Positions 1 to 49,168 of a DNA stretch of 49,168 nucleotides are shown here, piece by piece. Source of the DNA: Escherichia phage 4A7; sequence record NC_049946.1. One strand, 5' to 3'. The translations under genes and the position numbers were made by a program. The notes beneath the pieces were generated by a model, which ran no database searches, was not told the origin of the DNA, and saw only the letters and a list, made by a program, of their open reading frames with translations. Positions within the stretch are counted from its first letter, which is position 1; each line of letters begins with the position of its first letter.

Positions 1-451
1 TAGTAAGGGCATTGAATCTGTATTTGATACTGCCATGGCAATTCAGTGGTATGCGCAGAGGGAAACTGATATCGAAAACGAAAAGCTCCGCAAAGAACTG
101 GACGATTTGCGTGCGGCAGCGGAGTCAGATTTACAACCCGGCACCATTGACTATGAACGCTACCGGCTCACAAAAGCGCAGGCAGATGCGCAGGAACTGA
201 AAAATGCCCGTGAAGACGGAGTAGTGCTGGAAACTGAACTGTTTACCTTCATTCTGCAACGTGTGGCACAGGAGATTTCGGGGATACTTGTGCGTGTGCC
301 GTTGACATTACAGCGTAAATATCCGGACATTTCACCATCACACCTTGATGTGGTGAAAACTGAAATCGCGAAAGCCTCCAATGTTGCAGCTAAGGCCGGT
401 GAAAACGTGGGCGGGTGGATCGATGATTTCAGACGCGCAGAAGGCAGCTAA
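1..451 (+). CDS. nu1: terminase small subunit Nu1, C-terminal part; the gene starts at 49071 and wraps across the window junction in frame
   Basis: Translation (frame starting at position 2) matches lambda Nu1 as recalled (AIQWYAQRE...DIENEKLR...[27 protein letters not shown]); there is no stop between position 2 and the listed ORF. Confidence 0.85.
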
Positions 452-2351
452 TGCAGCCGGTGCGATAGCTACAGGGCTTTTATCTCTCATTATTCCTGTT
501 CCACTGACGACAGTTCAGTGGGCCAATAAACATTATTACCTTCCTAAAGAGTCGTCTTATACCCCGGGGCGGTGGGAAACACTGCCGTTTCAGGTTGGCA
601 TCATGAACTGTATGGGCAACGATCTGATTCGCACGGTTAACCTGATTAAATCTGCCCGTGTTGGTTATACAAAGATGTTGCTGGGAGTGGAGGCTTATTT
701 TATTGAGCATAAATCACGCAACAGCCTTCTTTTTCAGCCCACGGACTCAGCTGCTGAAGATTTTATGAAATCTCATGTTGAGCCAACGATAAGGGATGTT
801 CCTGCATTGCTGGAGCTGGCTCCATGGTTCGGAAGAAAACACCGCGATAATACGCTCACCCTGAAGCGTTTTTCCTCCGGTGTGGGGTTCTGGTGTCTGG
901 GTGGTGCGGCAGCAAAAAACTACCGTGAAAAATCCGTGGATGTGGTCTGTTATGACGAGCTTTCCTCGTTCGAACCGGATGTTGAAAAAGAGGGTTCGCC
1001 AACCCTGCTGGGGGATAAACGTATTGAGGGCTCTGTATGGCCAAAATCCATTCGCGGCTCGACGCCTAAAATCAAAGGCTCCTGCCAGATCGAAAAAGCC
1101 GCTAACGAGTCGGCACACTTCATGCGTTTTTATGTGCCCTGTCCGCACTGTGGGGAGGAGCAGTATCTGAAATTTGGCGATGATGCCTCGCCTTTCGGTC
1201 TTAAGTGGGAGAAGAATAAGCCAGAAAGTGTTTTCTACCTTTGTGAGCATCATGGCTGTGTGATCCATCAGTCTGAGCTTGACCAGAGTAACGGGCGGTG
1301 GATCTGTGAAAACACGGGCATGTGGACCCGTGACGGCCTGATGTTTTTCAGCGCCCGGGGTGATGAAATTCCGCCGCCGCGCTCCATCACTTTCCATATC
1401 TGGACGGCGTACAGTCCGTTCACCACCTGGGTACAGATTGTCTATGACTGGCTGGATGCACTGAAAGATCCCAACGGCCTGAAAACCTTTGTGAACACCA
1501 CGCTGGGCGAGACCTGGGAAGAGGCTGTGGGCGAAAAACTCGATCACCAGGTGCTGATGGATAAGGTTGTGCGTTACACGGCGGCGGTGCCTGCCCGGGT
1601 GGTTTATCTGACGGCGGGCATTGACTCGCAGCGAAACCGTTTTGAGATGTATGTCTGGGGATGGGCTCCGGGAGAGGAAGCCTTTCTGGTGGATAAAATC
1701 ATCATTATGGGGCGTCCCGATGAGGAAGAGACGCTGTTACGTGTGGATGCGGCGATCAACAAAAAATACCGCCATGCAGACGGAACCGAAATGACTATTT
1801 CCCGTGTCTGCTGGGACATCGGGGGGATCGATGGCGAAATCGTTTATCAGAGGTCAAAAAAACACGGTGTTTTCCGGGTGCTGCCGGTAAAAGGCGCATC
1901 TGTCTATGGCAAGCCGGTGATCACCATGCCAAAAACCCGCAATCAGCGGGGCGTGTATCTGTGTGAAGTGGGGACGGACACCGCAAAAGAAATTCTCTAT
2001 GCCCGTATGAAAGCCGATCCCACGCCTGTGGATGAAGCCACGTCGTATGCCATCCGTTTTCCTGATGATCCGGATATTTTTTCGCAGACAGAGGCGCAGC
2101 AACTGGTCGCGGAAGAGCTTGTGGAGAAGTGGGAAAAAGGAAAGATGCGTCTGCTGTGGGATAACAAAAAGCGGCGTAACGAAGCGCTGGACTGCCTGGT
2201 GTATGCCTACGCGGCATTACGTGTGTCCGTGCAACGCTGGCAGCTTGATCTGGCTGTACTGGCAAAATCCCGGGAAGAAGAGACGACCCGGCCAACCCTT
2301 AAAGAACTGGCAGCGAAGCTGTCCGGAGGAGTGAATGGTTACAGTCGCTGA
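423..2351 (+). CDS. A: terminase large subunit gpA
   Basis: Near-colinear with lambda gpA as recalled ([60 protein letters not shown]). ATG at 423 overlaps the nu1 end as in lambda; an alternative start is at 381. Confidence 0.9.
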
Positions 2352-2541
2352 ACTGCAGGCGCTGCGTCAGGCGCGCCTTGATTTATTAACCGGTAAACGG
2401 GTGGTGTCTGTCCAGAAAGATGGTCGCAGAATTGAATATACGGCGGCTTCTCTGGATGAGCTTAACCGGGCGATCAATGATGCGGAGTCGGTACTGGGGA
2501 CAACCCGGTGTCGCCGTCGTCCGCTGGGAGTGAGGTTATGA
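2335..2541 (+). CDS. W: head-tail joining / DNA stabilisation protein gpW
   Basis: 68 aa, matches lambda gpW as recalled (LTGKRVVSVQKDGRRIEYTAAS); the position after A is conserved. Confidence 0.85.
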   Translation: MVTVAELQALRQARLDLLTGKRVVSVQKDGRRIEYTAASLDELNRAINDAESVLGTTRCRRRPLGVRL

Positions 2542-4130
2542 AACGAACGCCTGTCCTGATTGATGTGAACGGCGTTCCGCTTCGTGAGAGTCTCAGCTAC
2601 AACGGGGGCGGTGCAGGATTTGGCGGGCAAATGGCTGAGTGGTTGCCACCGGCGCAGAGTGCCGATGCGGCCCTGCTGCCCGCGTTGCGTCTGGGGAATG
2701 CCCGGGCAGATGATCTGGTGCGCAATAACGGAATAGCGGCTAATGCGGTGGCTCTGCATAAGGATCACATTGTCGGGCATATGTTTCTGATCAGCTACCG
2801 TCCGAACTGGCGCTGGCTGGGGATGCGGGAGACCGCAGCAAAAAGCTTTGTCGATGAGGTGGAGGCGGCCTGGTCGGAATACGCCGAAGGGATGTTTGGC
2901 GAGATCGACGTGGAAGGAAAACGCACGTTCACGGAATTTATCCGTGAAGGTGTGGGCGTTCATGCGTTTAACGGCGAAATCTTTGTGCAGCCGGTCTGGG
3001 ATACGGAAACCACGCAGTTATTCCGTACGCGTTTTAAAGCCGTGAGTCCGAAACGGGTGGACACGCCTGGACACGGTATGGGGAACCCTTTTCTGCGGGC
3101 CGGTGTGGAGGTCGATCGATATGGCCGTGCCGTCGCGTACCATATCTGTGAGGATGATTTTCCGTTCTCTGGTAGTGGACGATGGGAACGGATCCCGCGT
3201 GAACTTCCCACCGGGCGTCCGGCCATGTTGCATATTTTCGAGCCGGTGGAGGACGGGCAGACCCGTGGGGCTAATCAGTTTTACAGCGTCATGGAACGGC
3301 TGAAGATGCTCGATTCCCTGCAGGCAACACAGCTTCAGTCGGCCATAGTGAAGGCGATGTATGCAGCGACGATTGAAAGTGAACTTGATACCGAAAAGGC
3401 CTTTGAATATATCGCCGGCGCGCCACAGGAGCAGAAGGATAATCCGCTTATTAATATTCTGGAGAAGTTTTCCAGCTGGTATGACACGAATAACGTGACA
3501 CTGGGCGGTGTCAAAATTCCGCACCTTTTCCCTGGTGATGATCTGAAACTACAGACTGCGCAGGATTCAGACAATGGATTTTCTGCGCTTGAACAGGCGC
3601 TGCTGCGGTATATCGCCGCCGGTCTTGGCGTTTCCTACGAACAGTTGTCCCGTGATTACTCGAAGGTCAGTTACTCAAGTGCCCGCGCCTCCGCCAATGA
3701 GTCGTGGCGCTATTTTATGGGGCGGCGAAAATTTATTGCGGCCCGGCTGGCCACGCAGATGTTTTCCTGCTGGCTGGAAGAGGCACTTCTTCGGGGGATT
3801 ATTCGTCCGCCACGGGCACGTTTTGATTTTTATCAGGCGCGATCAGCCTGGTCACGGGCAGAGTGGATTGGTGCCGGAAGAATGGCCATTGACGGGCTCA
3901 AGGAAGTCCAGGAATCAGTGATGCGCATTGAGGCCGGACTGAGCACGTATGAGAAAGAGCTGGCGCTGATGGGCGAGGATTATCAGGACATTTTCCGCCA
4001 GCAGGTCAGGGAATCTGCTGAGCGGCAAAAAGCCGGACTCTCACGTCCGGTGTGGATAGCGCAGGCGTATCAGCAGCAGATAGCGGAGAGTCGTAGGCCG
4101 GAAGAGGAGACAACACCACGTGAGACGTAA
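2538..4130 (+). CDS. B: portal protein gpB
   Basis: Matches lambda gpB as recalled (ARADDLVRNNG, HAFNGEIFVQPVWDTE, FEPVEDGQTRGANQFYSVME, LLRYIAAGLGVSYEQLSR). ATG at 2538 overlaps the W stop (ATGA) and follows a GAGG RBS. Confidence 0.9.
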   Translation: MKRTPVLIDVNGVPLRESLSYNGGGAGFGGQMAEWLPPAQSADAALLPALRLGNARADDLVRNNGIAANAVALHKDHIVGHMFLISYRPNWRWLGMRETAAKSFVDEVEAAWSEYAEGMFGEIDVEGKRTFTEFIREGVGVHAFNGEIFVQPVWDTETTQLFRTRFKAVSPKRVDTPGHGMGNPFLRAGVEVDRYGRAVAYHICEDDFPFSGSGRWERIPRELPTGRPAMLHIFEPVEDGQTRGANQFYSVMERLKMLDSLQATQLQSAIVKAMYAATIESELDTEKAFEYIAGAPQEQKDNPLINILEKFSSWYDTNNVTLGGVKIPHLFPGDDLKLQTAQDSDNGFSALEQALLRYIAAGLGVSYEQLSRDYSKVSYSSARASANESWRYFMGRRKFIAARLATQMFSCWLEEALLRGIIRPPRARFDFYQARSAWSRAEWIGAGRMAIDGLKEVQESVMRIEAGLSTYEKELALMGEDYQDIFRQQVRESAERQKAGLSRPVWIAQAYQQQIAESRRPEEETTPRET

Positions 4131-5625
4131 TCTTTCACACATTATTGCCGCAGCATTCAATGAACCGCTGCTTCTGGAGCCCGCCTATGCGCGGGTTTTC
4201 TTTTGCGCGCTCGGGCGCGAGATGGGGGCAGCAAGTCTTTCGGTACCACAACAGCAGGTACAGTTTGATGCTCTCGGAATGCTGGCTGAAACGGACGAGT
4301 ACATGGCCGGAGGTAAACGACCGGCCCGTGTTTACAGGGTGGTGAACGGTATTGCTGTACTGCCGGTGACCGGCACGCTGGTGCACCGGCTGGGTGGTAT
4401 GCGGCCATTTTCCGGAATGACAGGCTATGACGGTATTGTCGCCTGTCTTCAGCAGGCAATGGCGGATAGCCAGGTGCGGGGCGTACTGCTGGACATTGAC
4501 AGTCCGGGCGGGCAGGCCGCCGGCGCGTTTGACTGCGCTGACATGATTTACCGCCTCCGTCAGCAGAAGCCGGTCTGGGCACTGTGCAATGACACGGCCT
4601 GTTCTGCAGCCATGCTGCTGGCGTCGGCCTGCTCCCGACGGCTGGTTACCCAGACATCCCGTATCGGTTCCATTGGCGTGATGATGAGCCATGTCAGCTA
4701 TGCCGGTCATCTGGCGCAGGCCGGTGTGGATATCACGCTGATTTACTCAGGGGCGCACAAGGTGGATGGCAATCAGTTTGAAGCGTTGCCGGCAGAGGTT
4801 CGCCAGGACATGCAGCAGCGGATTGATGCGGCGCGCCGGATGTTTGCCGAAAAAGTGGCGATGTTTACCGGTCTGTCTGTTGATGCAGTCACAGGAACAG
4901 AGGCCGCTGTTTTTGAAGGTCAGTCCGGCATTGAGGCCGGGCTGGCGGATGAATTAATCAATGCGTCGGATGCCATCAGTGTGATGGCCACGGCGCTGAA
5001 CAGTAATGTCAGAGGAGGCACTATGCCGCAATTAACTGCAACGGAAGCCGCCGCGCAGGAGAACCAGCGAGTGATGGGGATCCTGACATGCCAGGAAGCG
5101 AAAGGACGTGAACAGCTTGCCACGATGCTGGCAGGACAACAGGGCATGAGCGTTGAACAGGCCCGGGCGATTCTGGCCGCGGCGGCACCGCAGCAGCCGG
5201 TGGCATCCACGCAGAGTGAAGCCGATCGCATTATGGCGTGTGAAGAAGCGAACGGTCGTGAACAACTGGCGGCAACGCTGGCGGCGATGCCGGAGATGAC
5301 GGTGGAAAAAGCCCGCCCGATCCTGGCTGCTTCACCGCAGGCGGATGCCGGACCATCACTCCGTGATCAGATCATGGCACTGGATGAGGCAAAAGGGGCT
5401 GAGGTGCAGGCTGAACAGCTGGCTGCCTGCCCGGGAATGACTGTGGAGTGCGCCCGGGCTGTGCTGGCTGCGGGATCAGGTAAGGCAGAACCGGTCTCTG
5501 CATCCACAACCGCCATGTTTGAACATTTCATGGCGAACCATTCACCGGCAGCGGTACAGGGTGGCGTGCCACAGACGTCAGCAGACGGTGATGCGGACGT
5601 GAAAATGCTCATGGCCATGCCATGA
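4120..5625 (+). CDS. C: prohead protease / scaffold gpC (S49 ClpP-like) with an expanded C-terminal scaffold-like repeat region; a nested Nu3-like in-frame product is likely
   Basis: N-terminal two-thirds resemble lambda gpC as recalled (AFNEPLLLEPAYARVFFCAL, SPGGQAAGAFDCADMI, TSRIGSIGVMMSH). GTG start at 4120 follows a GAGGAGA RBS. The C-terminus carries three tandem ~35-aa repeats. Confidence 0.85.
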   Translation: MRRNLSHIIAAAFNEPLLLEPAYARVFFCALGREMGAASLSVPQQQVQFDALGMLAETDEYMAGGKRPARVYRVVNGIAVLPVTGTLVHRLGGMRPFSGMTGYDGIVACLQQAMADSQVRGVLLDIDSPGGQAAGAFDCADMIYRLRQQKPVWALCNDTACSAAMLLASACSRRLVTQTSRIGSIGVMMSHVSYAGHLAQAGVDITLIYSGAHKVDGNQFEALPAEVRQDMQQRIDAARRMFAEKVAMFTGLSVDAVTGTEAAVFEGQSGIEAGLADELINASDAISVMATALNSNVRGGTMPQLTATEAAAQENQRVMGILTCQEAKGREQLATMLAGQQGMSVEQARAILAAAAPQQPVASTQSEADRIMACEEANGREQLAATLAAMPEMTVEKARPILAASPQADAGPSLRDQIMALDEAKGAEVQAEQLAACPGMTVECARAVLAAGSGKAEPVSASTTAMFEHFMANHSPAAVQGGVPQTSADGDADVKMLMAMP

Positions 5626-5661
5626 AGCCAGTGCTGACCATCAATAGGAGGTTTTAACAAT

Positions 5662-6009
5662 ATGGTGACGAAAACCATCACTGAACAGCGTGCGGAAGTA
5701 CGTATTTTTGCCGGTAATGATCCGGCTCATACCGCCACAGGCAGCAGCGGGATTTCTTCTGCAACACCGGCTCTGACGCCCCTGATGCTGGATGAAGCCA
5801 CCGGGAAACTGGTGGTCTGGGACGGACAGAAAGCCGGTAGTGCGGTTGGCATACTGGTACTGCCGCTTGAAGGCACAGAGACGGCGCTGACGTATTACAA
5901 GTCGGGAACCTTTGCGACGGAGGCAATCCACTGGCCTGAAAGTGTGGATGAACACAAAAAGGCCAACGCCTTTGCTGGCAGTGCCCTGAGTCACGCGGCG
6001 CTGCCGTAA
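5662..6009 (+). CDS. D: head decoration protein gpD
   Basis: 115 aa, matches lambda gpD as recalled (DPAHTATG, TPLMLD, VWDGQ, AVGILV, YYKSGTF, AFAG). AGGAGG-like RBS upstream. Confidence 0.85.
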   Translation: MVTKTITEQRAEVRIFAGNDPAHTATGSSGISSATPALTPLMLDEATGKLVVWDGQKAGSAVGILVLPLEGTETALTYYKSGTFATEAIHWPESVDEHKKANAFAGSALSHAALP

Positions 6010-6066
6010 CACGTTATCAGGCCACCGCGCTGGCCTGACTGATTTCTGAATGAAAGGAACTGATTT

Positions 6067-7095
6067 ATGGGATTGTTTACGACCCGCCAGTTACTCGGTT
6101 ATACCGAACAAAAAGTTAAATTTCGTGCGCTGTTTCTGGAACTGTTTTTCCGCCGTACGGTGAATTTCCATACCGAAGAGGTGATGCTGGACAAAATTAC
6201 CGGAAAAACGCCGGTGGCGGCCTATGTCTCCCCGGTTGTTGAAGGAAAAGTGCTGCGTCATCGTGGTGGTGAAACCCGCGTGTTGCGTCCGGGCTACGTC
6301 AAGCCGAAACACGAATTTAATTACCAGCAGGCGGTTGAGCGCCTTCCTGGGGAAGATCCATCTCAACTGAATGATCCGGCTTACCGCCGTCTGCGTATCA
6401 TTACCGATAACCTCAAACAGGAAGAGCACGCGATTGTCCAGGTGGAAGAAATGCAGGCGGTAAATGCTGTGTTGTATGGCAAATACACCATGGAAGGAGA
6501 CCAGTTCGAGAAAATTGAGGTCGATTTTGGCAGGTCGACGAAGAATAACATCACTCAGGGTAGTGGTAAGGAGTGGTCAAAACAGGATCGTGACACGTTC
6601 GATCCTACACATGATATTGACCTCTACTGCGACCAGGCCAGCGGTCTTGTGAATATTGCCATTATGGACGGTACCGTCTGGCGTCTTCTGAATGGTTTTA
6701 AGCTGTTCCGCGAAAAACTGGATACCCGTCGCGGTTCAAATTCTCAACTCGAAACGGCAGTGAAAGATCTGGGCGCAGTGGTGTCCTTCAAGGGGTATTA
6801 CGGCGATCTGGCCATTGTGGTGGCGAAAATGTCTTATATAGCAGAAGACGGTATCGAAAAACGTTATCTTCCAGATGGCATGCTGGTTCTGGGGAATACT
6901 GCTGCAGATGGGATCCGTTGTTACGGTGCCATTCAGGATGCTCAGGCGTTGTCCGAAGGTGTGGTGGCCTCTTCCCGTTATCCGAAACACTGGCTGACGG
7001 TAGGGGATCCCGCCCGTGAATTTACCATGACGCAGTCCGCGCCGCTGATGGTGTTGCCGGACCCGGATGAGTTTGTGGTGGTACAGGTGAAATAA
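6067..7095 (+). CDS. E: major capsid protein gpE
   Basis: 342 aa, colinear with lambda gpE as recalled (TPGYVKPKHE, DPAYRRLRII, VEEMQAVNAVLYGKYTMEGD, KLDTRRGSNSQLETAVKDLG, TVGDPAREFTMTQSAPLM). Confidence 0.9.
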   Translation: MGLFTTRQLLGYTEQKVKFRALFLELFFRRTVNFHTEEVMLDKITGKTPVAAYVSPVVEGKVLRHRGGETRVLRPGYVKPKHEFNYQQAVERLPGEDPSQLNDPAYRRLRIITDNLKQEEHAIVQVEEMQAVNAVLYGKYTMEGDQFEKIEVDFGRSTKNNITQGSGKEWSKQDRDTFDPTHDIDLYCDQASGLVNIAIMDGTVWRLLNGFKLFREKLDTRRGSNSQLETAVKDLGAVVSFKGYYGDLAIVVAKMSYIAEDGIEKRYLPDGMLVLGNTAADGIRCYGAIQDAQALSEGVVASSRYPKHWLTVGDPAREFTMTQSAPLMVLPDPDEFVVVQVK

Positions 7096-7103
7096 TCCGT
7101 GAG

Positions 7104-7132
7104 CGGGGGCGAAATGCCCCCGTGTCTTTTTT
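7104..7132 (+). terminator. putative intrinsic terminator/attenuator after the major capsid gene
   Basis: 7-bp GC stem CGGGGGC/GCCCCCG with loop GAAAT, followed by TGTCTTTTTTCAC, 9 nt after the E stop codon. Confidence 0.4.
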
Positions 7133-7146
7133 CACAGGGGGCTGAT

Positions 7147-7521
7147 ATGGCAACGAAAGAGCAAAATCTGAAACGGCTTGATGAACTGGCCCTGATTCTG
7201 GGGCGTGAGCCGGATATATCCGGGAGTGCCGCAGAGATAGCGCAGCGGGTGGCAGAATGGGAAGAGGAAATGCAGTCATCCGGCGATGATGTACAGGTTA
7301 TGAATATGGATATCCGGGAGCGGGAAACCGCGGCTCATGATGTTCGTGAGGAAACATCCGGCGCGTTAACGCGCATCAGAGTTCTGACCTGCCTCCATCT
7401 CTGTGGCGTTGATGGTGAAACGGGGGAATCCGTTGAGCTTGCGGATGTTGGTCGGGTGATTCTGATTATGTCCTCAGATGCAAAAACACACGTTGATGGT
7501 GGAATGGCTGTTTATGCGTGA
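7147..7521 (+). CDS. FI: DNA packaging protein FI-like
   Basis: Position between E and FII; acidic protein with weak resemblance to lambda FI. ATG at 7147 is internal to the listed ORF 7099-7521. Confidence 0.65.
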   Translation: MATKEQNLKRLDELALILGREPDISGSAAEIAQRVAEWEEEMQSSGDDVQVMNMDIRERETAAHDVREETSGALTRIRVLTCLHLCGVDGETGESVELADVGRVILIMSSDAKTHVDGGMAVYA

Positions 7522-7867: not shown

Positions 7868-7878
7868 AAGGGGGATGT

Positions 7879-8849: not shown

Positions 8850-8856
8850 GGACGAT

Positions 8857-41624: not shown

Positions 41625-41639
41625 CATTAAAAATAATTT
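41625..41639. repeat. 15-bp direct repeat CATTAAAAATAATTT, right copy
   Basis: Perfect match to 39552-39566. Confidence 0.5.
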
Positions 41640-41663
41640 CTTTTGAATCGAGTGAAATAGGTT

Positions 41664-41690
41664 AGCCCGCATAAGTGCGGGCTGCTTTTT
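41664..41690 (+). terminator. intrinsic terminator between convergent ybcK-side and esterase genes
   Basis: Stem AGCCCGC/GCGGGCT with loop ATAAG, followed by GCTTTTT. Confidence 0.55.
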
Positions 41691-42732: not shown

Positions 42733-43179
42733 GTTTTACATGCCTTGACTTATCGGATGAAATTCTCTTACTGAATTTAACGGCAGTTTAATAGCCGTAC
42801 AACTCGTGGTAGCCAGGGAAATATCCCAGTCGTGGTTAAGGTTGTACTTGACGGCTATTATTTCAACAATGCTTAAAGTGAGAGCTTAAGGTTATGCGTA
42901 TGTTTTACAGTCCGAGTAGATTCTGACCAATAGCTTCTTTGTATAATTCTGTCAGAAATAAATCTTGGCTTGCATGAAGTTTGAGACCTTATCTTGTTTG
43001 ATTATGAATAATCAATTCGCCATAATTGTATCACCGGAGCCTGAACAACTCCGGTGACTTCTGCGCTAAACGGGGACGTTTATGCGCACACACAATCCAA
43101 ACTCTCTTCTCCCTTCACAGATGCAGAAATGCACCTGCGTTTTTTTGCATCCAGCGTCTGACCTCTGTGGAGGTGAAGC

Positions 43180-43635
43180 GTGAACCTACCACAAGATGGC
43201 ATCAAACTGCATCGCGGTAACTTCATCGCTATCGGCCAGCAGATCCAGCCTTATCTGGAGGACGGAAAATGCTTTCGCATGGTGCTTAAACCGTGGCGTG
43301 AGAAACGCAGTCTTTCCCAGAATGCACTCAGCCATATGTGGTACAGCGAAATCAGTGAATACCTCATCAGCAGGGGGAAATCGTTCGCTACCGCAGCATG
43401 GGTAAAAGATGCTCTCAAACACACATACCTCGGTTATGAAACCAAGGACCTGGTTGATGTCGTAACCGGCGAAATCACTACTATCCAGTCGTTACGCCAT
43501 ACCTCCGATCTTGATACCGGAGAGATGTATGTCTTCCTGTGTAAGGTTGAAGCCTGGGCGATGAATATTGGCTGCCACCTGACTATTCCGCAGAGCTGCG
43601 AGTTCCAGCTGCTGCGCGACAAGCAGGAGGCGTAA
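43180..43635 (+). CDS. ybcN: YbcN-like nin-region protein
   Basis: 151 aa, matches DLP12 YbcN as recalled ([15 protein letters not shown]...). GTG start follows a GGAGG RBS. Confidence 0.75.
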
Positions 43636-43805
43636 TGGCTACACCGCTTATTCGTGTCATGAACGGACACATCTACAAAGTACCAAATCGTCGTAAGCGT
43701 AAACCTGAGCTGAAGCCATCCGAAATACCAACACTGCTCGGGTATACCGCCAGCCTGGTTGATAAAAAATGGTTGCGACTGGCAGCAAGGAGGAATCATG
43801 GCTGA
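43635..43805 (+). CDS. ninE: NinE-like small protein
   Basis: 56-aa basic ORF ([27 protein letters not shown]...), not in the supplied ORF track; coupled by overlaps to ybcN (TAATG) and ybcO. Confidence 0.55.
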   Translation: MATPLIRVMNGHIYKVPNRRKRKPELKPSEIPTLLGYTASLVDKKWLRLAARRNHG

Positions 43806-44088
43806 TTTGAGAAAAGCAGCGCGTGGTCGGGAATGCCAGGTAAGAATCCCTGGCGTATGTAATGGCAATCCTGAAACGTCAGTACTGGCACATATCCGGC
43901 TGGCTGGATTGTGCTGTACCGGTATCAAACCGCCAGACCTGATTGCCACCATTGCATGTTCTGCCTGCCACGACGAAATCGACCGTCGCACGCATTTTGT
44001 TGACGCTGGATATGCAAAAGAATGCGCGCTGGAAGGTATGGCGAGAACACAGGTTATCTGGTTGAAAGAGGGGGTTATTGAGGCGTGA
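43798..44088 (+). CDS. ybcO: YbcO-like protein (DUF1364-type nin gene, Cys-rich)
   Basis: From [28 protein letters not shown] onward it matches DLP12 YbcO as recalled; ATG at 43798 is internal to the listed ORF. Confidence 0.8.
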
Positions 44089-44447
44089 ATACCTACAGCA
44101 TCACATTACCCTGGCCGCCGAGCAATAATCGCTATTACCGCCATAATCGCGGACGCACGCATATCAGCGCAGAGGGGCAGGCATACCGCGATAATGTCGC
44201 CCGAATCATTAAAAACGCAATGCTGGATATCGGCCTGGCTATTCCTGTGAAAATCAGCATTGAGTGCCACATGCCGGATCGCCGTCGCCGTGACCTTGAT
44301 AATCTGCAAAAGGCCGCTTTTGACGCACTCACCAAAGCAGGTTTCTGGCTGGATGATGCTCAGGTCGTTGATTACCGCGTTGTGAAGATGCCCGTTACCA
44401 AAGGTGGGAAGCTGGAGCTGACTATCACTGAACTGGGAGATGAATGA
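44085..44447 (+). CDS. rusA: Holliday junction resolvase RusA
   Basis: 120 aa, matches E. coli RusA as recalled ([26 protein letters not shown]...[25 protein letters not shown]). Confidence 0.9.
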
Positions 44448-44584
44448 TGTTTGAGTCTTATATGGCAGAGCGTCTTCGCCGCCGCTGGGTGCGCCTGCGC
44501 TTATATCGTTTTCCTGGTTCTGTTTTGACCGATTACCGAATACTGAAGAATTACGCCAAAACCCTGACAGGAGCAGGAGTATGA
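44444..44584 (+). CDS. ylcG: YlcG-like small protein
   Basis: 46-aa ORF overlapping the rusA stop (ATGATG), in the DLP12 position between rusA and Q; not in the ORF track. Confidence 0.5.
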
Positions 44585-44669
44585 AGTCAGAGATAACAAT
44601 CAACTAATACTGTTTTGTTGATTTTTGCTTGTAATTGGCGTTCTGGTCTGATTTTTGTGGAGTAAGTTG

Positions 44670-45053
44670 ATGCGTGATATTCAGATGGTTCTTGAGCGTT
44701 GGGGAGCGTGGGCGGCTAATAATCATGAAGATGTGACCTGGTCGTCCGTTGCCGCCGGTTTTAAGGGATTAATTCCTTCAAAAGTAAAATCTCGCCCGCA
44801 ATGTTGTGACGATGACGCGATGATCATTTGCGGGTGCATGGCCCGTCTGAAAAAGAACAACAGCGATTTACACGATTTATTAGTAGATTATTATGTATGT
44901 GGTATGACATTCATGTCACTGGCAAGTAAGCATTGCTGCTCGGATGGTTATATCGGGAAAAGGTTACAGAAGGCTGAGGGCATAATTGAAGGGATGTTAA
45001 TGGCATTAGATATCCGGTTAGATATGGATATCGTTGCTAATAATTCTAATTGA
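44670..45053 (+). CDS. Q: late-gene antiterminator Q (phage 82 / DLP12 QuuD type)
   Basis: From [24 protein letters not shown] onward it matches QuuD as recalled; Cys-rich zinc site ([12 protein letters not shown]). Confidence 0.85.
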
Positions 45054-45190
45054 TATGCAATTGTTTACTAAAAGTTATTAAAAATGGGGCGTGGAAACGC
45101 CCCCAAAATAAAGGGTAATATATAACAGAAGGTTTATATAGTAAGAAGCAAGGTAGTGCTTCTAAAGGAAGTGGCTTGAGGGCTCCACTT

Positions 45191-45230
45191 ATATGTTGCG
45201 GAGGCAAAGCCTCCCGCAACATATCTTTTT
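45191..45230 (+). terminator. strong intrinsic terminator ~140 nt downstream of Q (tR' candidate)
   Basis: ~15-bp stem ATATGTTGCGGAGGC/GCCTCCCGCAACATAT with loop AAA, followed by CTTTTT; the spacing from Q fits the lambdoid pR'-6S RNA-tR' arrangement. Confidence 0.6.
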
Positions 45231-45241
45231 CGTAAGTCAGA

Positions 45242-46324
45242 TTAGAACTGATAAACCAGACCTACAGCGACGATGTCGTCGGTATCAATACCAGCTGTTT
45301 TGGTAAACTTACTATCGTCAATTAAGTTGATTTTGTAATCAACAAAAGTGGACATGTTTTTATTAAAGTAGTAAGTAGCACCGACATCGACATACTTGAC
45401 TAAGTCTCGGTCACCATGAACACCAAGGTCTTTACCTTTTGACTGAAGGTAAGCAACAGATGGTCGCAGACCGAAGTCAAACTGATATTGTGCTACTGCT
45501 TCAAAGTTTTGTGCTTTGTTTGCAATATGGTTATTACCAAAAACGGTCATATTCTGAGTTTCAGAATATGTGGTAGCCAGATAGATATTGTTCGCATCAT
45601 ATTTCAGGCCTGCAGCCCATACTTCCGCATTTTTGCCGGAGGCATTGAATTTGCTCTTACCATAGGCGACCTGACCGTCAGTGCGATCTGATTTAGCATA
45701 GGTTGCACCCACGCCGAATCCTTCATACTCATAAGTAGTGGAGAAACCGAAACCATCACCATTGACTTCAGTTACGTCAGTGCGGTCATTTTTACCCTGA
45801 TACTGAGCAGCAAAGTTCAGGCCATCGACCAGACCAAAGAAGTCGTTGTTACGATAAGTTGCAACACCAGTAGTGCGACCAGTCATGAACACATCTGTTT
45901 GGGTCCAGGTATCACCACCGAATTCTGGCAGGACGTCAGTCCACGCACCGATGTCGTATGCTACACCGTAGTTACGGCCGTAATCGATTGAGCCGTAATC
46001 ACCAAATTTCAGGCCTGCAAATGCAAGACGGGTTTTGTCTTTGGAAGAACCTTGAGATTCAGCACGGTTGCCTTTGAATTCATATTCCCACTGACCGAAA
46101 CCAGTCAGTTGATCGTTGATTTGGGTTTCACCTTTGAAGCCAAGACGGGCATAAGTAGTATCACCATCATCTGCATCATTAGAGGAGAAGTAGTGCTTGG
46201 CATTAACTTTCCCGTATAGATCCAGCTTGTTACTGTCTTTATTATAAATTTCAGCTGCCTGAGCAGACATCGCCATCAGTACTGATGCAGCTACAGCAGA
46301 AATTGCCACTGTTAATTTTTTCAT
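45242..46324 (-). CDS. nmpC: OmpC/OmpF-family general porin (NmpC / Lc-like phage porin)
   Basis: 360 aa; signal peptide [23 protein letters not shown], porin motifs ([35 protein letters not shown]) and a C-terminal Phe. Confidence 0.9.
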
Positions 46325-46751
46325 TGTACGCCCTTTTTTTTGAACTATTATTAAAAAATGATGTCACTGCGCGATAAATATTCATCTAATCAATGCGATT
46401 ATTTCAAGATGTAAGTTTTAGTTTCTCATTTAATTTGTGAAGTAGATCTCTATTTTTATCTGAACCTTTTCTATCTAATCCTATTCATGGCTCTTGTTTG
46501 AACGAAAATAAATCTATTAGCTAATTTATATTAATGGCACTTATTTATAAGCGCTCTATAATTCTTTAGCTTAATTTAAACAAACTAAAAATAACATCGG
46601 AAATTATTCATTGGTTATTTGTTGAAGTTTTCTTATGTATTTGTGGTGGTGTTTTGAACACTCGGTGGCATTCTCACAAATATCATTTAGTAGTTTACGT
46701 ACGTAAAAAATTGGTTATGCTGTTAAGAGTGGTTACTTCGTCACACAGCTT

Positions 46752-46784
46752 AAACCCGCCGTCGAGCGGGTTTTTCCATTTTTT
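46752..46784 (+). terminator. intrinsic terminator upstream of the lysis cassette
   Basis: Stem AACCCGC/GCGGGTT with loop CGTCGA, followed by TTTCCATTTTTT. Confidence 0.5.
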
Positions 46785-46913
46785 GAGTCTCGATATTAGC
46801 TGATAACCCAATACCTGAGTTATTCACTGACTCCGAATCTGTTACGTTTCTGCCTTTATTGCGATACGTAGTATCCCCTTAATTTACACCCGCTTTGTCT
46901 GCGAGGTGGGGTT

Positions 46914-47129
46914 ATGAAATCCATGGATAAGTTAACAACGGGTGTCGCCTATGGCACCTCAGCAGGTAGTGCCGGGTACTGGTTTTTACAGTTGCTCGAT
47001 AAAGTCACGCCCTCACAGTGGGCGGCAATAGGTGTGCTGGGTAGTCTGGTATTTGGCTTGCTGACGTATCTGACAAACCTTTATTTCAAGATTAAAGAAG
47101 ATAAGCGTAAGGCTGCGAGAGGTGAATAA
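46914..47129 (+). CDS. S: class II holin / pinholin (phage 21 S-like, dual start Met1/Met4)
   Basis: 71 aa, matches S21 as recalled (MKSMDK...[17 protein letters not shown]...[11 protein letters not shown]...[11 protein letters not shown]...RKAARGE). Confidence 0.9.
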
Positions 47130-47626
47130 TGTCGCCATCATTACGCAAGGCTATTGCTGCTGCTATTGGTGGTGGGGCTGTTGCCATAGCGTCTGTGCTC
47201 ATCACTGGTCCGAGTGGTGACGATGGCCTGGAAGGTGTCAGCTACATACCATACAAAGATATCGTTGGCGTATGGACTGTATGTCACGGACACACCGGAA
47301 AAGACATCATGCTCGGTAAAACGTATACCGAAGCAGAATGCAAAGCCCTCCTGAATAAAGACCTTGCCACTGTCGCCAGACAAATTAACCCGTACATCAA
47401 AGTCGATATACCGGAAACAACGCGCGGCGCTCTTTACTCGTTCGTTTACAACGTGGGCGCTGGCAATTTCAGAACATCGACGCTTCTTCGCAAAATAAAC
47501 CAGGGCGATATCAAAGGCGCATGTGATCAGCTACGGCGCTGGACATACGCTGGCGGTAAGCAATGGAAAGGGCTGATGACTCGCCGTGAGATTGAGCGTG
47601 AAGTCTGTTTGTGGGGGCAACAATGA
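47129..47626 (+). CDS. R: SAR endolysin (T4-lysozyme-like muramidase, R21 type)
   Basis: N-terminal signal-anchor-release segment ([18 protein letters not shown]); lysozyme motifs (EG...YIPYKD..G.WT.C.GHTG); follows the pinholin. Confidence 0.9.
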
Positions 47627-48066
47627 GCAGAGTAACCGCGATTATCTCCGCTCTGGTTATCTGCATCATCGTCTGCCTGTCATGGGCTGTTAATCATTAC
47701 CGTGATAACGCCATCGCCTACAAAGAGCAGCGCGACAAAGCCGCATCTACTATCGCTGACATGCAGAAGCGTCAACGTGATGTAGCAGAACTCGACGCCA
47801 GATACACAAAGGAGCTTGCTGATGCTAACGCGACTATCGAAAGTCTACGTGCTGATGTTTTTGCTGGTCGTAAGTGGCTGCGCGTCAAAGCAGTCTGTCC
47901 GGACATGCATAAAACCACCGCCGCCTCCGGCGTGGATGATGGTGCCAGCCCCAGACTTACTGACACCGCTCAACGGGATTATTTCGTTCTCAGAGAGCGC
48001 ATCGAAACCGTAACTAACCAATTGAATGGTCTGCAAGAGTATGTGAGATCACAGTGTTCATATTAG
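47623..48066 (+). CDS. Rz: i-spanin Rz
   Basis: From [31 protein letters not shown] onward it resembles lambda Rz as recalled; ATGA overlap with R. Confidence 0.85.
47816..48013 (+). CDS. Rz1: o-spanin Rz1 (lipoprotein, embedded in Rz in the +1 frame)
   Basis: Lipobox LVVSGC, then a proline-rich segment ([15 protein letters not shown]...TPLNGII) as in lambda Rz1; lies entirely within Rz. Confidence 0.7.
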
Positions 48067-48104
48067 AAAAGTCTTATCATAAGATTTTTGTATATGGATG
48101 CATT

Positions 48105-48479
48105 ATGTCTCAATACGCTCAAGCCGCTTTAAATGCTTATCAATTGGTTGCTCATAACTCAATGTCTCCTCGTGATGCATGGGAGGCTGCTGTCGCTGAG
48201 GTTACAGAAAGCGAATCGGCAAGAAAGAAGGGATGCCCAAGGGCAACGTTTCTCGCTCTGGCGGATAGCGGTTATCTGAAGAATGTAAAACAACATCATG
48301 GGGAGAAAAAGATCGGTAAGTTGTACCAAAGGGCAATTGAAGTTGCGAATCTGATTCTTGATTTACCCGGAATTAGCAAAGCTGAGCTAGTTGATAAAAC
48401 TTGCTATAAAGACAGGCAAGGGTCTTATGACATTGCTCTAACTCTCGCTCAGCACGGATTACTCCAGCGTCCTCAATAA
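48105..48479 (+). CDS. hypothetical protein in the bor-equivalent position
   Basis: ORF downstream of Rz followed by a terminator; ATG at 48105 (the listed ORF starts at a GTG inside Rz at 48054); no recognised homologue. Confidence 0.4.
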   Translation: MSQYAQAALNAYQLVAHNSMSPRDAWEAAVAEVTESESARKKGCPRATFLALADSGYLKNVKQHHGEKKIGKLYQRAIEVANLILDLPGISKAELVDKTCYKDRQGSYDIALTLAQHGLLQRPQ

Positions 48480-48497
48480 GATATTAAGTGATTTATG

Positions 48498-48521
48498 GCC
48501 TCGCTTTTAGCGGGGCTTTTT
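48498..48521 (+). terminator. intrinsic terminator after the bor-position ORF
   Basis: Stem GCCTCGC/GCGGGGC (one G-U pair) with loop TTTTA, followed by TTTTT. Confidence 0.45.
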
Positions 48522-48882
48522 CATATCTGAATCTCACCATGCATATCATCACCTGACTGGAACGTCAGGAGAATTCGTTACCGGGATTCGATAAAGGTAT
48601 TCAAGCCTGACACATTATGCGCTGTATCGTCGCCGTATTCCTGCATTAACCATGACCGTAGCCCGACGGGGAATTCCTTCTGCGCGAGTGTGCGGGAATA
48701 ATCAAAAACGATGCACACCGGGTTTTTACCGCGTTTATTATTCGCGGGTTTGTCCCTCATGCTCGCCAGTCCTGTGCGGGGGTGGAAGAAACAGGACGTG
48801 TATTCAGGTCTGTCAGATATTGAATTCATTGCGAATAAACCAGAACGCCTGCGGGTCCTTTCCGGCGATCCGACAGGTTACG

Positions 48883-48894
48883 GGGCGGCGACCT
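48883..48894 (+). other. cosN, the 12-nt cohesive-end sequence (lambda type); cosB extends to about 49070
   Basis: ...GATCCGACAGGTTACG|GGGCGGCGACCTCGCGG... matches the junction of the lambda right and left ends as recalled; located ~175 bp upstream of the nu1 start. Confidence 0.8.
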
Positions 48895-49070
48895 CGCGGT
48901 TTTTCACTATTTATGAAAATTTTTCAGGGAAAATCGTGTCGGTACTTCTCGAATATAACTTTTTGTTTTTTTTAATATTGCATTCGTAAAGGTCCGACAT
49001 GAAAGTGTCCGAAAATGCCTTTTTCTGGCGTTTTCATGTCGGGCCTTGTATTTGATAATGGGTTGTTTTC

Positions 49071-49168
49071 ATGAAGGTTAATAAAAAGAGGCTTGCCGAA
49101 ATTTTCAACGTGGACCCGCGGACGATTGAACGCTGGCAGTCTCAGGGACTCCCTTGCGCCTCCAAAGG
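49071..49168 (+). CDS. nu1: terminase small subunit Nu1, N-terminal part (continues in frame at window position 1)
   Basis: [33 protein letters not shown] matches the lambda Nu1 N-terminus as recalled (MEVNKKQLADIFGASIRTIQNWQEQGMP...); the frame is continuous across the end-to-start junction. Confidence 0.85.

What the first reader, a model, noticed from the sequence alone, without database searches (positions are those of the whole stretch)
1..49168. Mosaic composition: lambda-type virion and Red genes combined with phage-21-type integration and lysis, DLP12/82-type nin-Q and a Rac-type immunity core
exo, bet, gam, P, ren, V and Z are near-identical to lambda as recalled, whereas int/attP (icd), the pinholin and SAR endolysin are phage-21/e14-like, the nin-Q region is DLP12/82-like and the cro/cII analogues are Rac-like. 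The module boundaries (for example 33290-33365, 39160-39230, 45054) are candidate recombination junctions.
Basis: partly seen in the sequence, partly recalled or inferred. Interest (0 to 1): 0.35.

Follow-up and report, generated by a model that had tools for sequence, protein, structure and literature searches.

The report
Known mosaic lambdoid phage genome

Summary
The window is a circularly permuted, complete 49,168-bp lambdoid phage genome. It is 100% identical over its full length to GenBank LR595861 (Lambda_4C10), OM475428 (1W) and OM475430 (3W). It differs by 3 mismatches and one extra IS from the ~47 kb compared of an icd-integrated prophage of E. coli SE15.

The mosaic is real and its junctions are sharp. 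Several labels need correcting:
- **Head and cos:** 21-type (99.6% nt), only 36–67% aa to lambda.
- **Tail and Red genes:** about equally close to lambda and 21 (~96–97%), so they do not mark a lambda backbone.
- **int/xis/attP-icd and sitABCD:** 21-type.
- **ren-to-lysis region:** DLP12-type, including Q (QuuD, 95% aa). Q is not Q82-type.
- **Pinholin:** 100% EssD versus 86% S21.
- **Immunity:** cro, cII and kil share Pfam families with Rac YdaS/YdaT/KilR at only 32–36% aa. cII is 67% identical to phi80 CII. cI is an S24 repressor unrelated to RacR.

The third, 45054, is not a junction; the real one is at 44585–44634.

The closest non-identical relative is phage Perceval (99.8% over 35544–47130). 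Verdict: already known, low interest.

The parts
48618..49168 (+). cos region of phage-21 type. cosN starts at 48883 (GGGCGGCGACCTCGCGG...) and cosB follows, so the window is circularly permuted and begins 286 bp after cos.
   Evidence: Window 48883-49168 matches phi21 1-286 at 99.65%. The cos sequence is shown.
1..7738 (+). Head module Nu1-A-W-B-C/Nu3-D-E-FI-FII(5'), phage-21 type.
   Evidence: 99.59% nt to phi21 (32 differences in 7738) and 99-100% aa. Lambda is only 64-71% nt and 36-67% aa.
7739..17905 (+). Tail module FII(3')-Z-U-V-G-T-H-M-L-K-I-J(N-terminal part), equidistant from lambda, 21 and Perceval.
   Evidence: 96.0% to lambda, 95.9% to 21 and 95.9% to Perceval. Lambda homology starts at 7739, inside FII.
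17990..20789 (+). J C-terminal receptor-binding part and side tail fibre stf, 21-type. J is itself an intragenic mosaic.
   Evidence: J aa 801-1000 are 93-94% to lambda but 35-77% to 21. J aa 1001-end are 98-100% to 21 but 41-49% to lambda. The block is 95.6% nt to 21.
20790..23321 (+). IS66-family insertion sequence (ISEc23-like, three ORFs) inserted in the 3' end of stf.
   Evidence: Pfam HTH_Tnp_1, TnpB_IS66 and DDE_Tnp_IS66. 8-bp target duplication TATAATGG at 20782-20789 and 23322-23329, and terminal inverted repeats GTAAGCGT. Stf loses 44 C-terminal residues relative to 21. Named ISEc23 family in the SE15 RefSeq annotation.
23322..27721 (-). Two small ORFs (+ strand) and the sitDCBA iron/manganese ABC transporter moron, as in phage 21.
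   Evidence: 99.45% nt to 21 and 99.64% to Perceval. Annotation.
27722..28219 (.). Short AT-rich b-region segment with no counterpart in 21 or Perceval. It replaces about 1.5 kb of phage 21.
28220..30529 (-). icd' 3' fragment (28512-28664, + strand), attP, int (28778-29920), xis (29910-30146) and a DUF4222 gene: the phage-21 integration module.
   Evidence: 96.9% nt to 21; int 99% and xis 100% aa to 21; e14 IntE 60%. Pfam Arm-DNA-bind_1, Phage_integrase and Exc. Prophage copies in E. coli genomes start matching at window 28501, inside icd.
30569..33371 (-). TraR-like gene, orf61/63/60a, exo, bet and gam: a Red module shared by lambda and 21.
   Evidence: 97.1% to lambda and ~96.4% to 21. Homology ends at 33371, four or five bases inside the stop-codon end of the kil analogue.
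33372..37693 (.). Immunity region. It holds a KilR/phi80-type kil (33365-33775, -), a putative OL (about 33863-33940), the PDC-M11B/A pair (34047-35475, -), an S24 cI repressor (35544-36236, -), OR (36237-36346), a YdaS-family cro (36347-36574, +), a YdaT/phi80-CII-family cII (36605-37144, +), and the O N-terminal domain with five iterons TTACCYGAATCAGGTAA (37582-37698).
   Evidence: No nt match to lambda, 21 or Rac. Pfam, PADLOC, PHROGs. Versus Rac: cro 32%, cII 35%, kil 36% aa, cI none. cII is 67% aa to phi80 CII. cI is 85% aa to Salmonella phage ST160 c2. Iterons; operator-like repeats.
37694..39130 (+). O C-terminal domain with the A/T-rich ori part, P, and most of ren: lambda/21/434 type.
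   Evidence: 95.8% to lambda and 96.2% to 21. The left edge lies immediately after the last iteron; the right edge lies in the 3' end of ren.
39131..41619 (+). ren 3' end, emrE, ylcJ, ybcK (large serine recombinase) and a truncated small ORF. DLP12-type up to 41378.
   Evidence: 96.1% nt to DLP12 over 38944-41378; emrE 99% and YbcK 98% aa. Pfam Resolvase, Recombinase and Zn_ribbon_recom. The truncated ORF is seen by comparison with IMG/VR loci.
41620..42996 (-). A second copy of the emrE 3' end plus its downstream sequence (a recombination scar, 41622-41659), and an alpha/beta-hydrolase (BD-FAE esterase, 41689-42732). This replaces DLP12 ybcL-ybcM.
42997..44585 (+). nin module ylcH-ybcN-ninE-ybcO-rusA-ylcG, DLP12/phage-82 type.
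   Evidence: 95.2% nt to DLP12 and 94.0% nt to phage 82 (X92588 49-1637). The 82 homology ends at the start codon of Q82.
44586..47130 (.). Q (QuuD-type, 44670-45053, +), the nmpC/lc-type porin (45242-46324, -) and the pinholin S (46914-47129, +).
   Evidence: Q is 95% aa to QuuD with no similarity to Q82. Pfam Phage_antitermQ and Phage_holin_2_1. S is 71/71 identical to EssD and 61/71 to S21. Perceval homology (99.8%) ends exactly at the S stop / R start, 47130.
47129..48617 (+). SAR endolysin R (47129-47626), Rz with embedded Rz1 (47611-48066), and a DUF6979 gene (48105-48479) where lambda, 21 and DLP12 carry bor.
   Evidence: R is 160/165 identical to RrrD and 158/165 to R21. Residues 8-27 form a Gly/Ala-rich hydrophobic N-terminus, and E35, D44 and T50 are present. 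DLP12 and 21 homology ends at 47997. Pfam DUF6979.

Best explanation
The window is the complete, circularly permuted genome of a known natural temperate lambdoid siphophage. It is identical to Lambda_4C10 (bv_4C10), 1W and 3W; the 3W record is classified in genus Bievrevirus. As a prophage it sits in the 3' end of icd.

Its patchwork similarity to the classical phages reflects the ordinary modular evolution of lambdoid phages. Whole functional blocks have been exchanged between co-resident or co-infecting phages and prophages. Exchange occurs by homologous recombination in shared flanks and, occasionally, by illegitimate or microhomology joining. Only gene-boundary or domain-boundary junctions survive selection.

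Its composition is as follows:
- phage-21-type cos and head;
- a common lambda/21-type tail;
- a 21-type J C-terminus, stf (now cut by an IS66 element), sitABCD and int/xis/attP-icd;
- a common Red module;
- an immunity module with an S24 cI, a YdaS-family cro, a phi80-like CII and its own O N-terminus and iterons;
- a lambda-type O C-terminus, P and ren;
- a DLP12-type moron/nin/Q/nmpC/pinholin/SAR-endolysin arm.

Shown here: the identities, the breakpoints, and the independent occurrence of the same genome. Inferred: the recombination mechanism and the order of events.
For: Identity to known genomes:
- 100% identity over 100% of both halves to LR595861.1, OM475428.1 and OM475430.1.
- The E. 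coli SE15 chromosome carries the same genome at icd. Over the 46,475 window bases compared there are 3 mismatches and one extra ISEc12 in J.
- 171 of 5426 complete E. coli genomes hold at least 80% of window 27700-39200; 172 records have best matches at >=99% identity.
- bv_4C10 is an inducible, plaque-forming prophage used in a 2026 preprint.

Module map and relatives:
- The module map comes from blastn, tblastn and 500-bp sliding identity.
- Phage PhiR47_2 has the same emrE-ybcK-hydrolase-nin block, followed by a 690-nt Q that overlaps ylcG as Q82 does in phage 82. This suggests the ylcG/Q junction is used in nature.
- Perceval has the same right arm but lambda-type heads, different genes in the cI-OL slot and a different endolysin.

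Junctions lie at functional boundaries (with for the iterons):
- inside FII (7739);
- at the kil stop codon (33371);
- right after the last O iteron (37694);
- in the ren 3' end (39130);
- at the ylcG stop / Q82 start (44585);
- at the S stop / R start (47130).
Against: Nothing contradicts it. Three limits apply. The direction and order of exchanges cannot be derived from pairwise identities alone. About 10.8 kb (22%) has no counterpart at >=80% identity in lambda, 21, DLP12 or 82, so the donors of those parts are not named archetypes. Phage 82 could be compared only over a 2.3-kb fragment.
Confidence: 0.95

Rival explanations
1. One reading: a lambda-type virion and Red backbone into which phage-21 integration and lysis genes, a DLP12/82 nin-Q region and a Rac-type immunity core were swapped.
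For: V, Z, exo, bet, gam and P are 95-100% aa identical to lambda. int is 21-type. The nin genes are DLP12/82-type. cro and cII fall in the YdaS and YdaT Pfam families.
Against: - Head genes are 36-67% aa to lambda but 99-100% to 21.
- Every 'lambda-like' block is equally or more similar to 21.
- Overall identical bases are 37.7% for lambda, 65.5% for 21 and 76.8% for Perceval.
- S is identical to DLP12 EssD, and the S-R nucleotide sequence is 94.3% to DLP12 against 88.5% to 21.
- Q is unrelated to Q82.
- cI is unrelated to RacR, and cII is far closer to phi80 CII (67%) than to YdaT (35%).
Confidence: 0.05
2. The mosaic is an assembly chimera that joins reads from several prophages of one lysogen.
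For: Lysogens often carry several lambdoid prophages with shared segments, which can mislead assemblers.
Against: The identical sequence appears in three phage records: 3W from the USA, and 4C10 from the COPSAC isolate collection. It also appears as a contiguous prophage within complete E. coli chromosomes. SE15 shows 3 mismatches over the 46,475 bases compared.
Confidence: 0.01
3. It is a laboratory-made hybrid of the lambda imm21 / 434B kind. 434B picked up DLP12 sequences during propagation on K-12.
For: 434B acquired its Q-lysis region from DLP12 in the laboratory. The window's right arm is DLP12-like.
Against: The DLP12-like arm is only 82-96% identical to K-12 DLP12, depending on the segment. 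It lacks K-12's IS3 and IS5 insertions and carries an intact nmpC and a hydrolase in place of ybcLM. The same genome is resident in wild E. coli chromosomes.
Confidence: 0.01

Closest known systems
Escherichia virus Lambda_4C10 (LR595861.1; 'bv_4C10'), Escherichia phages 1W (OM475428.1) and 3W (OM475430.1); the icd prophage of E. coli SE15 (NC_013654.1)
   Same: The three phage records are identical in sequence over the whole window. SE15 differs by 3 mismatches over the 46,475 bases compared. It has the same IS66 insertion and matches from window 28501 within icd.
   Different: Only the permutation and terminal redundancy of the records differ. SE15 has an additional ISEc12 in J.
Escherichia phage Perceval (OV696612.1, Bievrevirus)
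   Same: 99.8% over 35544-47130 (cI to S), 99.35% over 28220-34042 (icd'/int to kil) and 99.6% over sitABCD. The architecture is the same.
   Different: - Perceval has lambda-type head genes, so the window's heads are only ~66-71% nt to it.
- It carries lom.
- It has an intact stf without the IS66.
- It has different genes in the cI-OL slot (window 34043-35543).
- It has a different endolysin and carries bor.
Escherichia phage 21 (OL657228.1, Jouyvirus)
   Same: cos and head genes at 99.6%, the J C-terminus and stf, sitABCD at 99.5%, and icd'/attP/int/xis at 97%. Red and O(C-terminal)-P-ren at 96%. The pinholin/SAR-endolysin type is shared.
   Different: - 21 has its own immunity region with N, cIII, kil, ea10 and ral.
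- It has lambda-type iterons and a lambda-like nin region (ninB, ninE, ninF, ninG).
- It has Q21, two tRNA genes and bor.
- It has no emrE-ybcK-hydrolase block, no nmpC and no IS66.
- Overall, 65.5% of window bases are identical to 21.
Cryptic prophage DLP12 of E. coli K-12 (and phage 82 for the nin genes)
   Same: renD-emrE-ylcJ-ybcK at 96%, and ylcH-ybcN-ninE-ybcO-rusA-ylcG-quuD at 95%. The order nmpC-essD-rrrD-rzpD is kept, and S is 100% aa identical. The nin genes are 94% nt to phage 82.
   Different: DLP12 has IS3 in renD, IS5 in nmpC, ybcL-ybcM where the window has the hydrolase, and bor where the window has DUF6979. The distal half of nmpC is only 75-80% identical. Phage 82 has a different Q.
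Phage lambda (NC_001416)
   Same: Gene order throughout. Tail genes Z-J at 96%, Red at 97%, O(C-terminal)-P-ren at 96%.
   Different: The following all differ: head genes (36-67% aa), cos, stf/tfa, the b region, int/att, the whole immunity region (no N, cIII or rexAB), iterons, nin, Q and the S/R type. Only 37.7% of window bases are identical.
Phage phi80 and cryptic prophage Rac (immunity-region protein families)
   Same: cII analogue: 67% aa over its full length to phi80 CII and 35% to Rac YdaT. kil: 41% to phi80 Kil and 36% to KilR. cro: 32% to YdaS.
   Different: cI is 23% aa identical to phi80 cI (E 7e-7) and shows nothing to RacR; its best named relative is Salmonella phage ST160 c2 at 85% aa. 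No ORF or Pfam/PHROG match for an N-type antiterminator was seen between the putative OL and kil. There is no nucleotide similarity to the Rac immunity region.

Membership tests
Lambdoid temperate phage (lambda supercluster); genus Bievrevirus | Lambda-like gene order: cos, head, tail, b/morons, att-int-xis, recombination, immunity, replication, nin, Q, lysis. | tested here: met
   The ORF and annotation map of the identical record 3W matches the lambda map.
Lambdoid temperate phage (lambda supercluster); genus Bievrevirus | Sequence identity with a genome classified in the genus. | tested here: met
   100% identical to OM475430.1, whose taxonomy line reads Bievrevirus. 76.8% of bases are identical to Perceval, also Bievrevirus.
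Phage 21 (Jouyvirus) as whole-genome type | High nucleotide similarity over most of the genome. From my own knowledge, ICTV genus demarcation is about 70% over full length. | tested here: not met
   65.5% of bases are identical and 67.5% are aligned. Immunity, nin, Q and the morons all differ.
Phage-21-type integration module (icd-targeting tyrosine integrase) | A lambda-family integrase with an arm-binding domain, an excisionase, and a phage-borne icd 3' end next to attP. Prophages are found inside icd. | tested here: met
   Pfam Arm-DNA-bind_1, Phage_integrase and Exc. int is 99% and xis 100% aa to 21, and icd' is 100%. Prophage copies join the host within icd at window 28501.
Pinholin / SAR-endolysin lysis cassette (S21/R21 type) | A class II holin of the P21 family with a dual start (M1...M4). 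An endolysin with an N-terminal Gly/Ala-rich signal-anchor-release segment and an E-D-T catalytic triad. Rz with embedded Rz1. | tested here: met
   Pfam Phage_holin_2_1 at 2e-35 and Phage_lysozyme at 1e-45. S begins MKSMDK. R residues 8-27 read [20 protein letters not shown], and E35, D44 and T50 are present. The +1 frame of Rz holds an Rz1-like ORF. Function was not tested.
Rac-type immunity (RacR / YdaS / YdaT) | A RacR-like repressor. | tested here: not met
   cI is a 230-aa HTH plus Peptidase_S24 repressor. It has no blastp similarity to RacR at E<=1.
Rac-type immunity (RacR / YdaS / YdaT) | YdaS-family and YdaT-family proteins downstream of the divergent promoter. | tested here: met
   Pfam YdaS_toxin at 9.6e-15 and YdaT_toxin at 7.6e-30. 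Identity to the Rac proteins is only 32% and 35% aa, against 67% to phi80 CII.
DLP12 / phage 82 nin-Q module | The genes ylcH-ybcN-ninE-ybcO-rusA-ylcG in that order. | tested here: met
   95.2% nt to DLP12 and 94.0% nt to phage 82 X92588.
DLP12 / phage 82 nin-Q module | Q of the phage 82 type. | tested here: not met
   82 homology ends at 44585. Window Q (127 aa) against Q82 gives no significant blastp match. It is 95% aa to DLP12 QuuD.
IS66 family insertion sequence | Three ORFs (tnpA, tnpB and a DDE transposase), terminal inverted repeats starting GTAAGCG, and an 8-bp target duplication. | tested here: met
   Annotated as ISEc23 family in SE15.

The most novel reading that the evidence does not exclude
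The mosaic itself offers nothing new. The least-explored item is the two-gene cassette in the rexAB-equivalent slot between cI and OL (34047-35475). It matches PADLOC candidate system PDC-M11 and is labelled GevT/GevA toxin/antitoxin in one 2025 GenBank record.

The larger protein has a GNAT acetyltransferase-like N-terminal domain. Its partner is an ASCH-domain protein. From my own knowledge, that fold includes an N4-acetylcytidine amidohydrolase. An unexcluded reading is a prophage-expressed defence or toxin-antitoxin pair in which the antitoxin enzymatically reverses the toxin's acetylation. The pair would be swapped as a unit between otherwise 99%-identical phages.
Probability: 0.2. Interest if true: 0.4.

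Novelty: already known. Interest (0 to 1): 0.08.

Why it matters
It matters little as a discovery. The genome is deposited three times, is present in about 3% of complete E. coli genomes and is used in the laboratory. Lambdoid mosaicism has been textbook material since the modular-evolution hypothesis.

The useful outcome is a corrected module map with base-level junctions. The head is 21-type rather than lambda-type, Q is QuuD-type rather than Q82-type, and the cII analogue is phi80-like rather than Rac-like.

The contrast in identities suggests, but does not prove, that recent exchanges are superimposed on older ones. Identity is 99.6-99.8% to phage 21 (head) and Perceval (right arm), against ~96% for the tail block between them.

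Tried and rejected
1. **45054 as a junction: rejected.** DLP12 identity is 93-100% from 44500 to 45299 and drops only inside nmpC at about 45300-45800. Perceval homology is continuous across the position. The natural exchange points seen in relatives are 44585 (phage 82; PhiR47_2 has a Q82-sized Q there) and 44634 (the PhiR49_1 group).

2. **e14 or Rac as donors: rejected at the nucleotide level.** e14 matches only the 220-bp icd fragment. Rac matches only the stf N-terminus, ompN-like porin sequence and Rz.

3. **ylcJ-ybcK as a mobile cassette: rejected.**
   - Basis for the idea: ylcJ-ybcK (with a large serine recombinase) might be a site-specific cassette bounded by the 38-nt direct repeats at 39549-39586 and 41622-41659. 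The repeat is non-random, with 0 of 100 shuffles matching.
   - Two complete genomes have a precise 'empty site' joining emrE to the hydrolase through the shared 15-nt core.
   - Against it: in 80 IMG/VR loci, the sequence left of copy 2 is the interior of a 107-aa ORF. That ORF is truncated in the window at about 41619, and homology ends at many different positions: 41348, 41405, 41551, 41573 and 41617.
   - Conclusion: copy 2 is a leftover emrE 3' end, a scar of recombination, not an att site.

4. **Rfam and tRNA scans:** both found nothing.

5. **Literature on GevT/GevA or PDC-M11:** nothing relevant in the held library.

6. **PDB sequence search with the PDC-M11A protein:** only E=0.15 hits to spermidine acetyltransferases.

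Full report
**What the window is.**
- Megablast of both halves against the GenBank phage collection gives 100% identity over 100% of the query. The matches are Escherichia virus Lambda_4C10 (LR595861.1), phage 1W (OM475428.1) and phage 3W (OM475430.1).
- The 3W record is classified in genus Bievrevirus. Window coordinate equals 3W coordinate minus 54.
- Window 48883-49168 equals phage 21 bases 1-286, and window 1 continues at phage 21 base 287. The window is therefore a complete genome, circularly permuted, with cosN at 48883.
- The E. coli SE15 chromosome holds the same genome inside icd. Over the 46,475 window bases compared there are 3 mismatches and an additional ISEc12 in J.
- 171 of 5426 complete E. 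coli genomes hold at least 80% of window 27700-39200; 172 records have best matches at >=99% identity. In the hits listed, the match starts at window 28501, within the icd fragment, as expected for integration at attP.
- A 2026 preprint uses this prophage (bv_4C10, GenBank LR595861) as an inducible, plaque-forming reporter.

**Is the mosaic real?** Yes. I fetched eight references:
- lambda;
- phage 21;
- K-12 DLP12, e14 and Rac;
- the phage 82 nin fragment;
- 434B;
- Perceval;
- P22;
- phi80.

These were fetched. I ran blastn and tblastn, and a 500-bp sliding identity table, against the subsets relevant to each region.

| Window region | Content | Identity to references |
|---|---|---|
| 1-7738 | cos-proximal and head genes | 99.59% to 21; 64-71% nt and 36-67% aa to lambda |
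| 7739-17905 | tail | 96.0% lambda, 95.9% 21, 95.9% Perceval |
| 17990-20789 | J C-terminus and stf | 95.6% to 21 |
| 20790-23321 | IS66-family element | absent from all references |
| 23322-27721 | sitDCBA | 99.5% to 21 |
| 27722-28219 | b-region segment | unique |
| 28220-30529 | icd'/attP/int/xis | 96.9% to 21 |
| 30569-33371 | Red | 97.1% lambda, ~96.4% 21 |
| 33372-37693 | immunity and O N-terminus | no nucleotide match to lambda, 21, DLP12, e14 or Rac |
| 37694-39130 | O C-terminus, P, ren | 96% lambda, 21 and 434 |
| 38944-41378 | ren 3' end to ybcK | 96.1% to DLP12 |
| 41379-42996 | hydrolase region | no match to lambda, 21 or DLP12 (Perceval and PhiR47_2 carry it) |
| 42997-45283 | nin and Q | 95.2% to DLP12 |
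| 42997-44585 | nin only | 94.0% to phage 82 |
| 45317-47997 | nmpC to Rz | 82-94% to DLP12 |
| 47998-48617 | Rz C-terminus and DUF6979 | unique |
| 48618-49168 | cos region | 98% to 21 |

Identical bases per window length are 37.7% for lambda, 65.5% for 21, 76.8% for Perceval and 16.6% for DLP12.

**Correcting the labels.**
1. *'Lambda-type virion' is wrong for the head.* Nu1, A, W, B, C/Nu3, D, E, FI and FII are 99-100% aa identical to phage 21 and 36-67% to lambda. Lambda homology begins at 7739, inside FII. J is itself mosaic. Residues 801-1000 are lambda/Perceval-like, and residues 1001-end are 98-100% 21-like but 41-49% lambda-like.
2. *The 'lambda-like' Red, P, V and Z genes do not mark a lambda backbone.* They are equally similar to 21.
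e14 IntE is only 60%.
4. *The lysis genes belong to the S21/R21 family but are closer to DLP12.* S is 71/71 identical to EssD against 61/71 to S21. R is 160/165 identical to RrrD against 158/165 to R21. The S-R nucleotide sequence is 94.3% to DLP12 against 88.5% to 21. The dual-start motif, the SAR-like N-terminus and the E35/D44/T50 triad are all present.
5. *nin is DLP12/82-type, but Q is not.* It is the 127-aa QuuD type (95% aa). Phage 82 homology ends at 44585, where Q82 starts, and Q82 shows no similarity.
6. *'Rac-type immunity core' holds only at family level.*
   - Pfam places cro in YdaS_toxin and cII in YdaT_toxin.
   - Identities to Rac are 32% for cro, 35% for cII and 36% for kil. 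cI, an HTH plus S24 peptidase protein, has no similarity to RacR.
   - The cII analogue is 67% identical over its full length to phi80 CII.
   - cI is 85% identical to the c2 repressor of Salmonella phage ST160.

**Junctions.** Ungapped alignments across the HSP ends show abrupt transitions.

| Junction | Position in the genes |
|---|---|
| 7739 | inside FII |
| 33371/33372 | 4-5 nt into the 3' end of the kil analogue; both phages share the same stop codon position |
| 37693/37694 | immediately after the fifth iteron (TTACCYGAATCAGGTAA, 37582-37698), where the lambda-type A/T-rich ori segment and O C-terminal domain begin |
| 39130/39131 | in the 3' end of ren |
| 41619/41620 | truncated ORF joined to an emrE 3' remnant (see below) |
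| 44585 | ylcG stop / Q82 start |
| 47130 | S stop / R start, versus Perceval |
| 47997 | inside Rz |

- 45054 is not a junction in any comparison.
- Relatives exchange at 44585-44634 instead.
- Junctions at gene or domain boundaries are what the modular model of lambdoid evolution predicts. The recombination mechanism itself is inferred, not shown.

**Closest relatives and history.**
- Perceval shares 35544-47130 at 99.80% (23 differences), 28220-34042 at 99.35% and sitABCD at 99.64%. It has lambda-type heads, lom, other genes in the cI-OL slot and another endolysin.
- Phage 21 was isolated from Paris sewer in the late 1950s, according to its record. It shares the head block at 99.59%.
- The intervening tail block is ~96% to every reference.
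- The simplest reading (an inference) is a recent assembly of a 21-lineage head block and a Perceval-lineage right arm onto a tail block of a third lineage.

**Side observations.**
- *IS66 element.* An ISEc23-like IS66 element with the 8-bp duplication TATAATGG truncates stf by 44 codons.
- *cI-OL slot.* The slot between cI and the putative OL holds a PADLOC PDC-M11A/B pair, with E-values of 2e-133 and 7e-52. Operator-like repeats are shared with OR. The pair is annotated GevT/GevA in PhiR47_2. The larger protein has an acetyltransferase-like N-terminus (phrog_13728, 4e-24) and the smaller is an ASCH protein. Perceval carries different genes at the same place.
- *emrE repeat.* The 38-nt direct repeat of the emrE 3' end flanks ylcJ-ybcK. 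It looked like att sites, and two genomes have a precise empty site. However, 80 IMG/VR relatives show the left arm of copy 2 is a truncated 107-aa ORF, and the downstream cargo breaks at many positions. It is a recombination scar in a hypervariable moron slot between ren and ybcN. That slot holds the hydrolase here, ybcLM in DLP12 and an HNH-like ORF elsewhere.
- *RNA scans.* No tRNA genes and no Rfam matches were found.

**Verdict.** The object is an already known phage genome showing ordinary lambdoid mosaicism, and interest is low.

Noticed in passing
window 20790-23321 (flanks 20782-20789 and 23322-23329): An IS66-family (ISEc23-like) element with the 8-bp target duplication TATAATGG sits in the 3' end of the side-tail-fibre gene. 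It removes the last 44 codons relative to phage 21 stf. The same insertion is present in the SE15 prophage, yet the phage still forms plaques (preprint).
   Followed up: yes
window 34047-35475 (minus strand): A two-gene cassette lies between cI and the putative OL, in the rexAB-equivalent slot. It matches PADLOC candidate system PDC-M11 (A: 357 aa with an acetyltransferase-like N-terminus; B: 125-aa ASCH protein). It is annotated GevT/GevA toxin/antitoxin in phage PhiR47_2. Perceval is otherwise 99% identical on both sides but carries different genes here.
   Followed up: partly
window 39549-39586 and 41622-41659: A 38-nt direct repeat (84% identical, 15-nt identical core CATTAAAAATAATTT) of the emrE 3' end flanks ylcJ and ybcK, a large serine recombinase. 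Two E. coli genomes (NZ_OY754409.1, NZ_AP025682.1) have emrE joined directly to the hydrolase through the core. Comparison with 80 IMG/VR loci shows that copy 2 abuts a truncated 107-aa ORF. The repeat is therefore a recombination scar rather than an att site.
   Followed up: yes
window 39131-42996: The interval between ren and ybcN is a hypervariable moron slot. It holds emrE-ylcJ-ybcK plus a BD-FAE esterase here, ybcL-ybcM in DLP12, and a 107-aa ORF plus a 260-aa HNH-like ORF in locus L040. Homology breaks after ybcK at five or more different positions. The role of the conserved serine recombinase YbcK remains unexplained.
   Followed up: partly
window 37582-37698: Five iterons (TTACCYGAATCAGGTAA, each an inverted repeat) lie inside the O gene and differ from lambda's. 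Lambda homology resumes at the base after the last iteron. The origin-recognition half of O and its sites therefore travel together with the immunity module.
   Followed up: yes
window 33863-33892 and 36260-36314: A shared repeat (TATTG...TTGCTATTG) occurs in the cI-cro intergenic region and about 150 bp downstream of the PDC-M11 pair. These are candidate OR and OL operators. No ORF or Pfam/PHROG match for an N-type antiterminator was seen between the putative OL and kil, so early-left antitermination, if any, is unexplained.
   Followed up: partly
window 15408-18806 (J): J is an intragenic mosaic. Residues 801-1000 are lambda/Perceval-like (93-96%) but 35-77% to 21. Residues 1001-end are 98-100% 21-like and 37-49% to lambda and Perceval. 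This implies a 21-type receptor-binding tip on a different stalk.
   Followed up: partly
window 45242-46324 (minus strand): An intact nmpC/lc-type porin gene lies between Q and S. It is IS5-disrupted in K-12 DLP12 and in 434B. Its distal half (45300-45800) is only 75-80% identical to DLP12, while both flanks are above 93%, which suggests allelic diversification or a separate small exchange.
   Followed up: partly
window 48054-48479 and 27722-28219: A DUF6979 gene occupies the position where lambda, 21, DLP12 and Perceval carry bor. A 0.5-kb AT-rich segment with a gene remnant replaces about 1.5 kb of the phage 21 b region. Neither has a counterpart in the references used.
   Followed up: no
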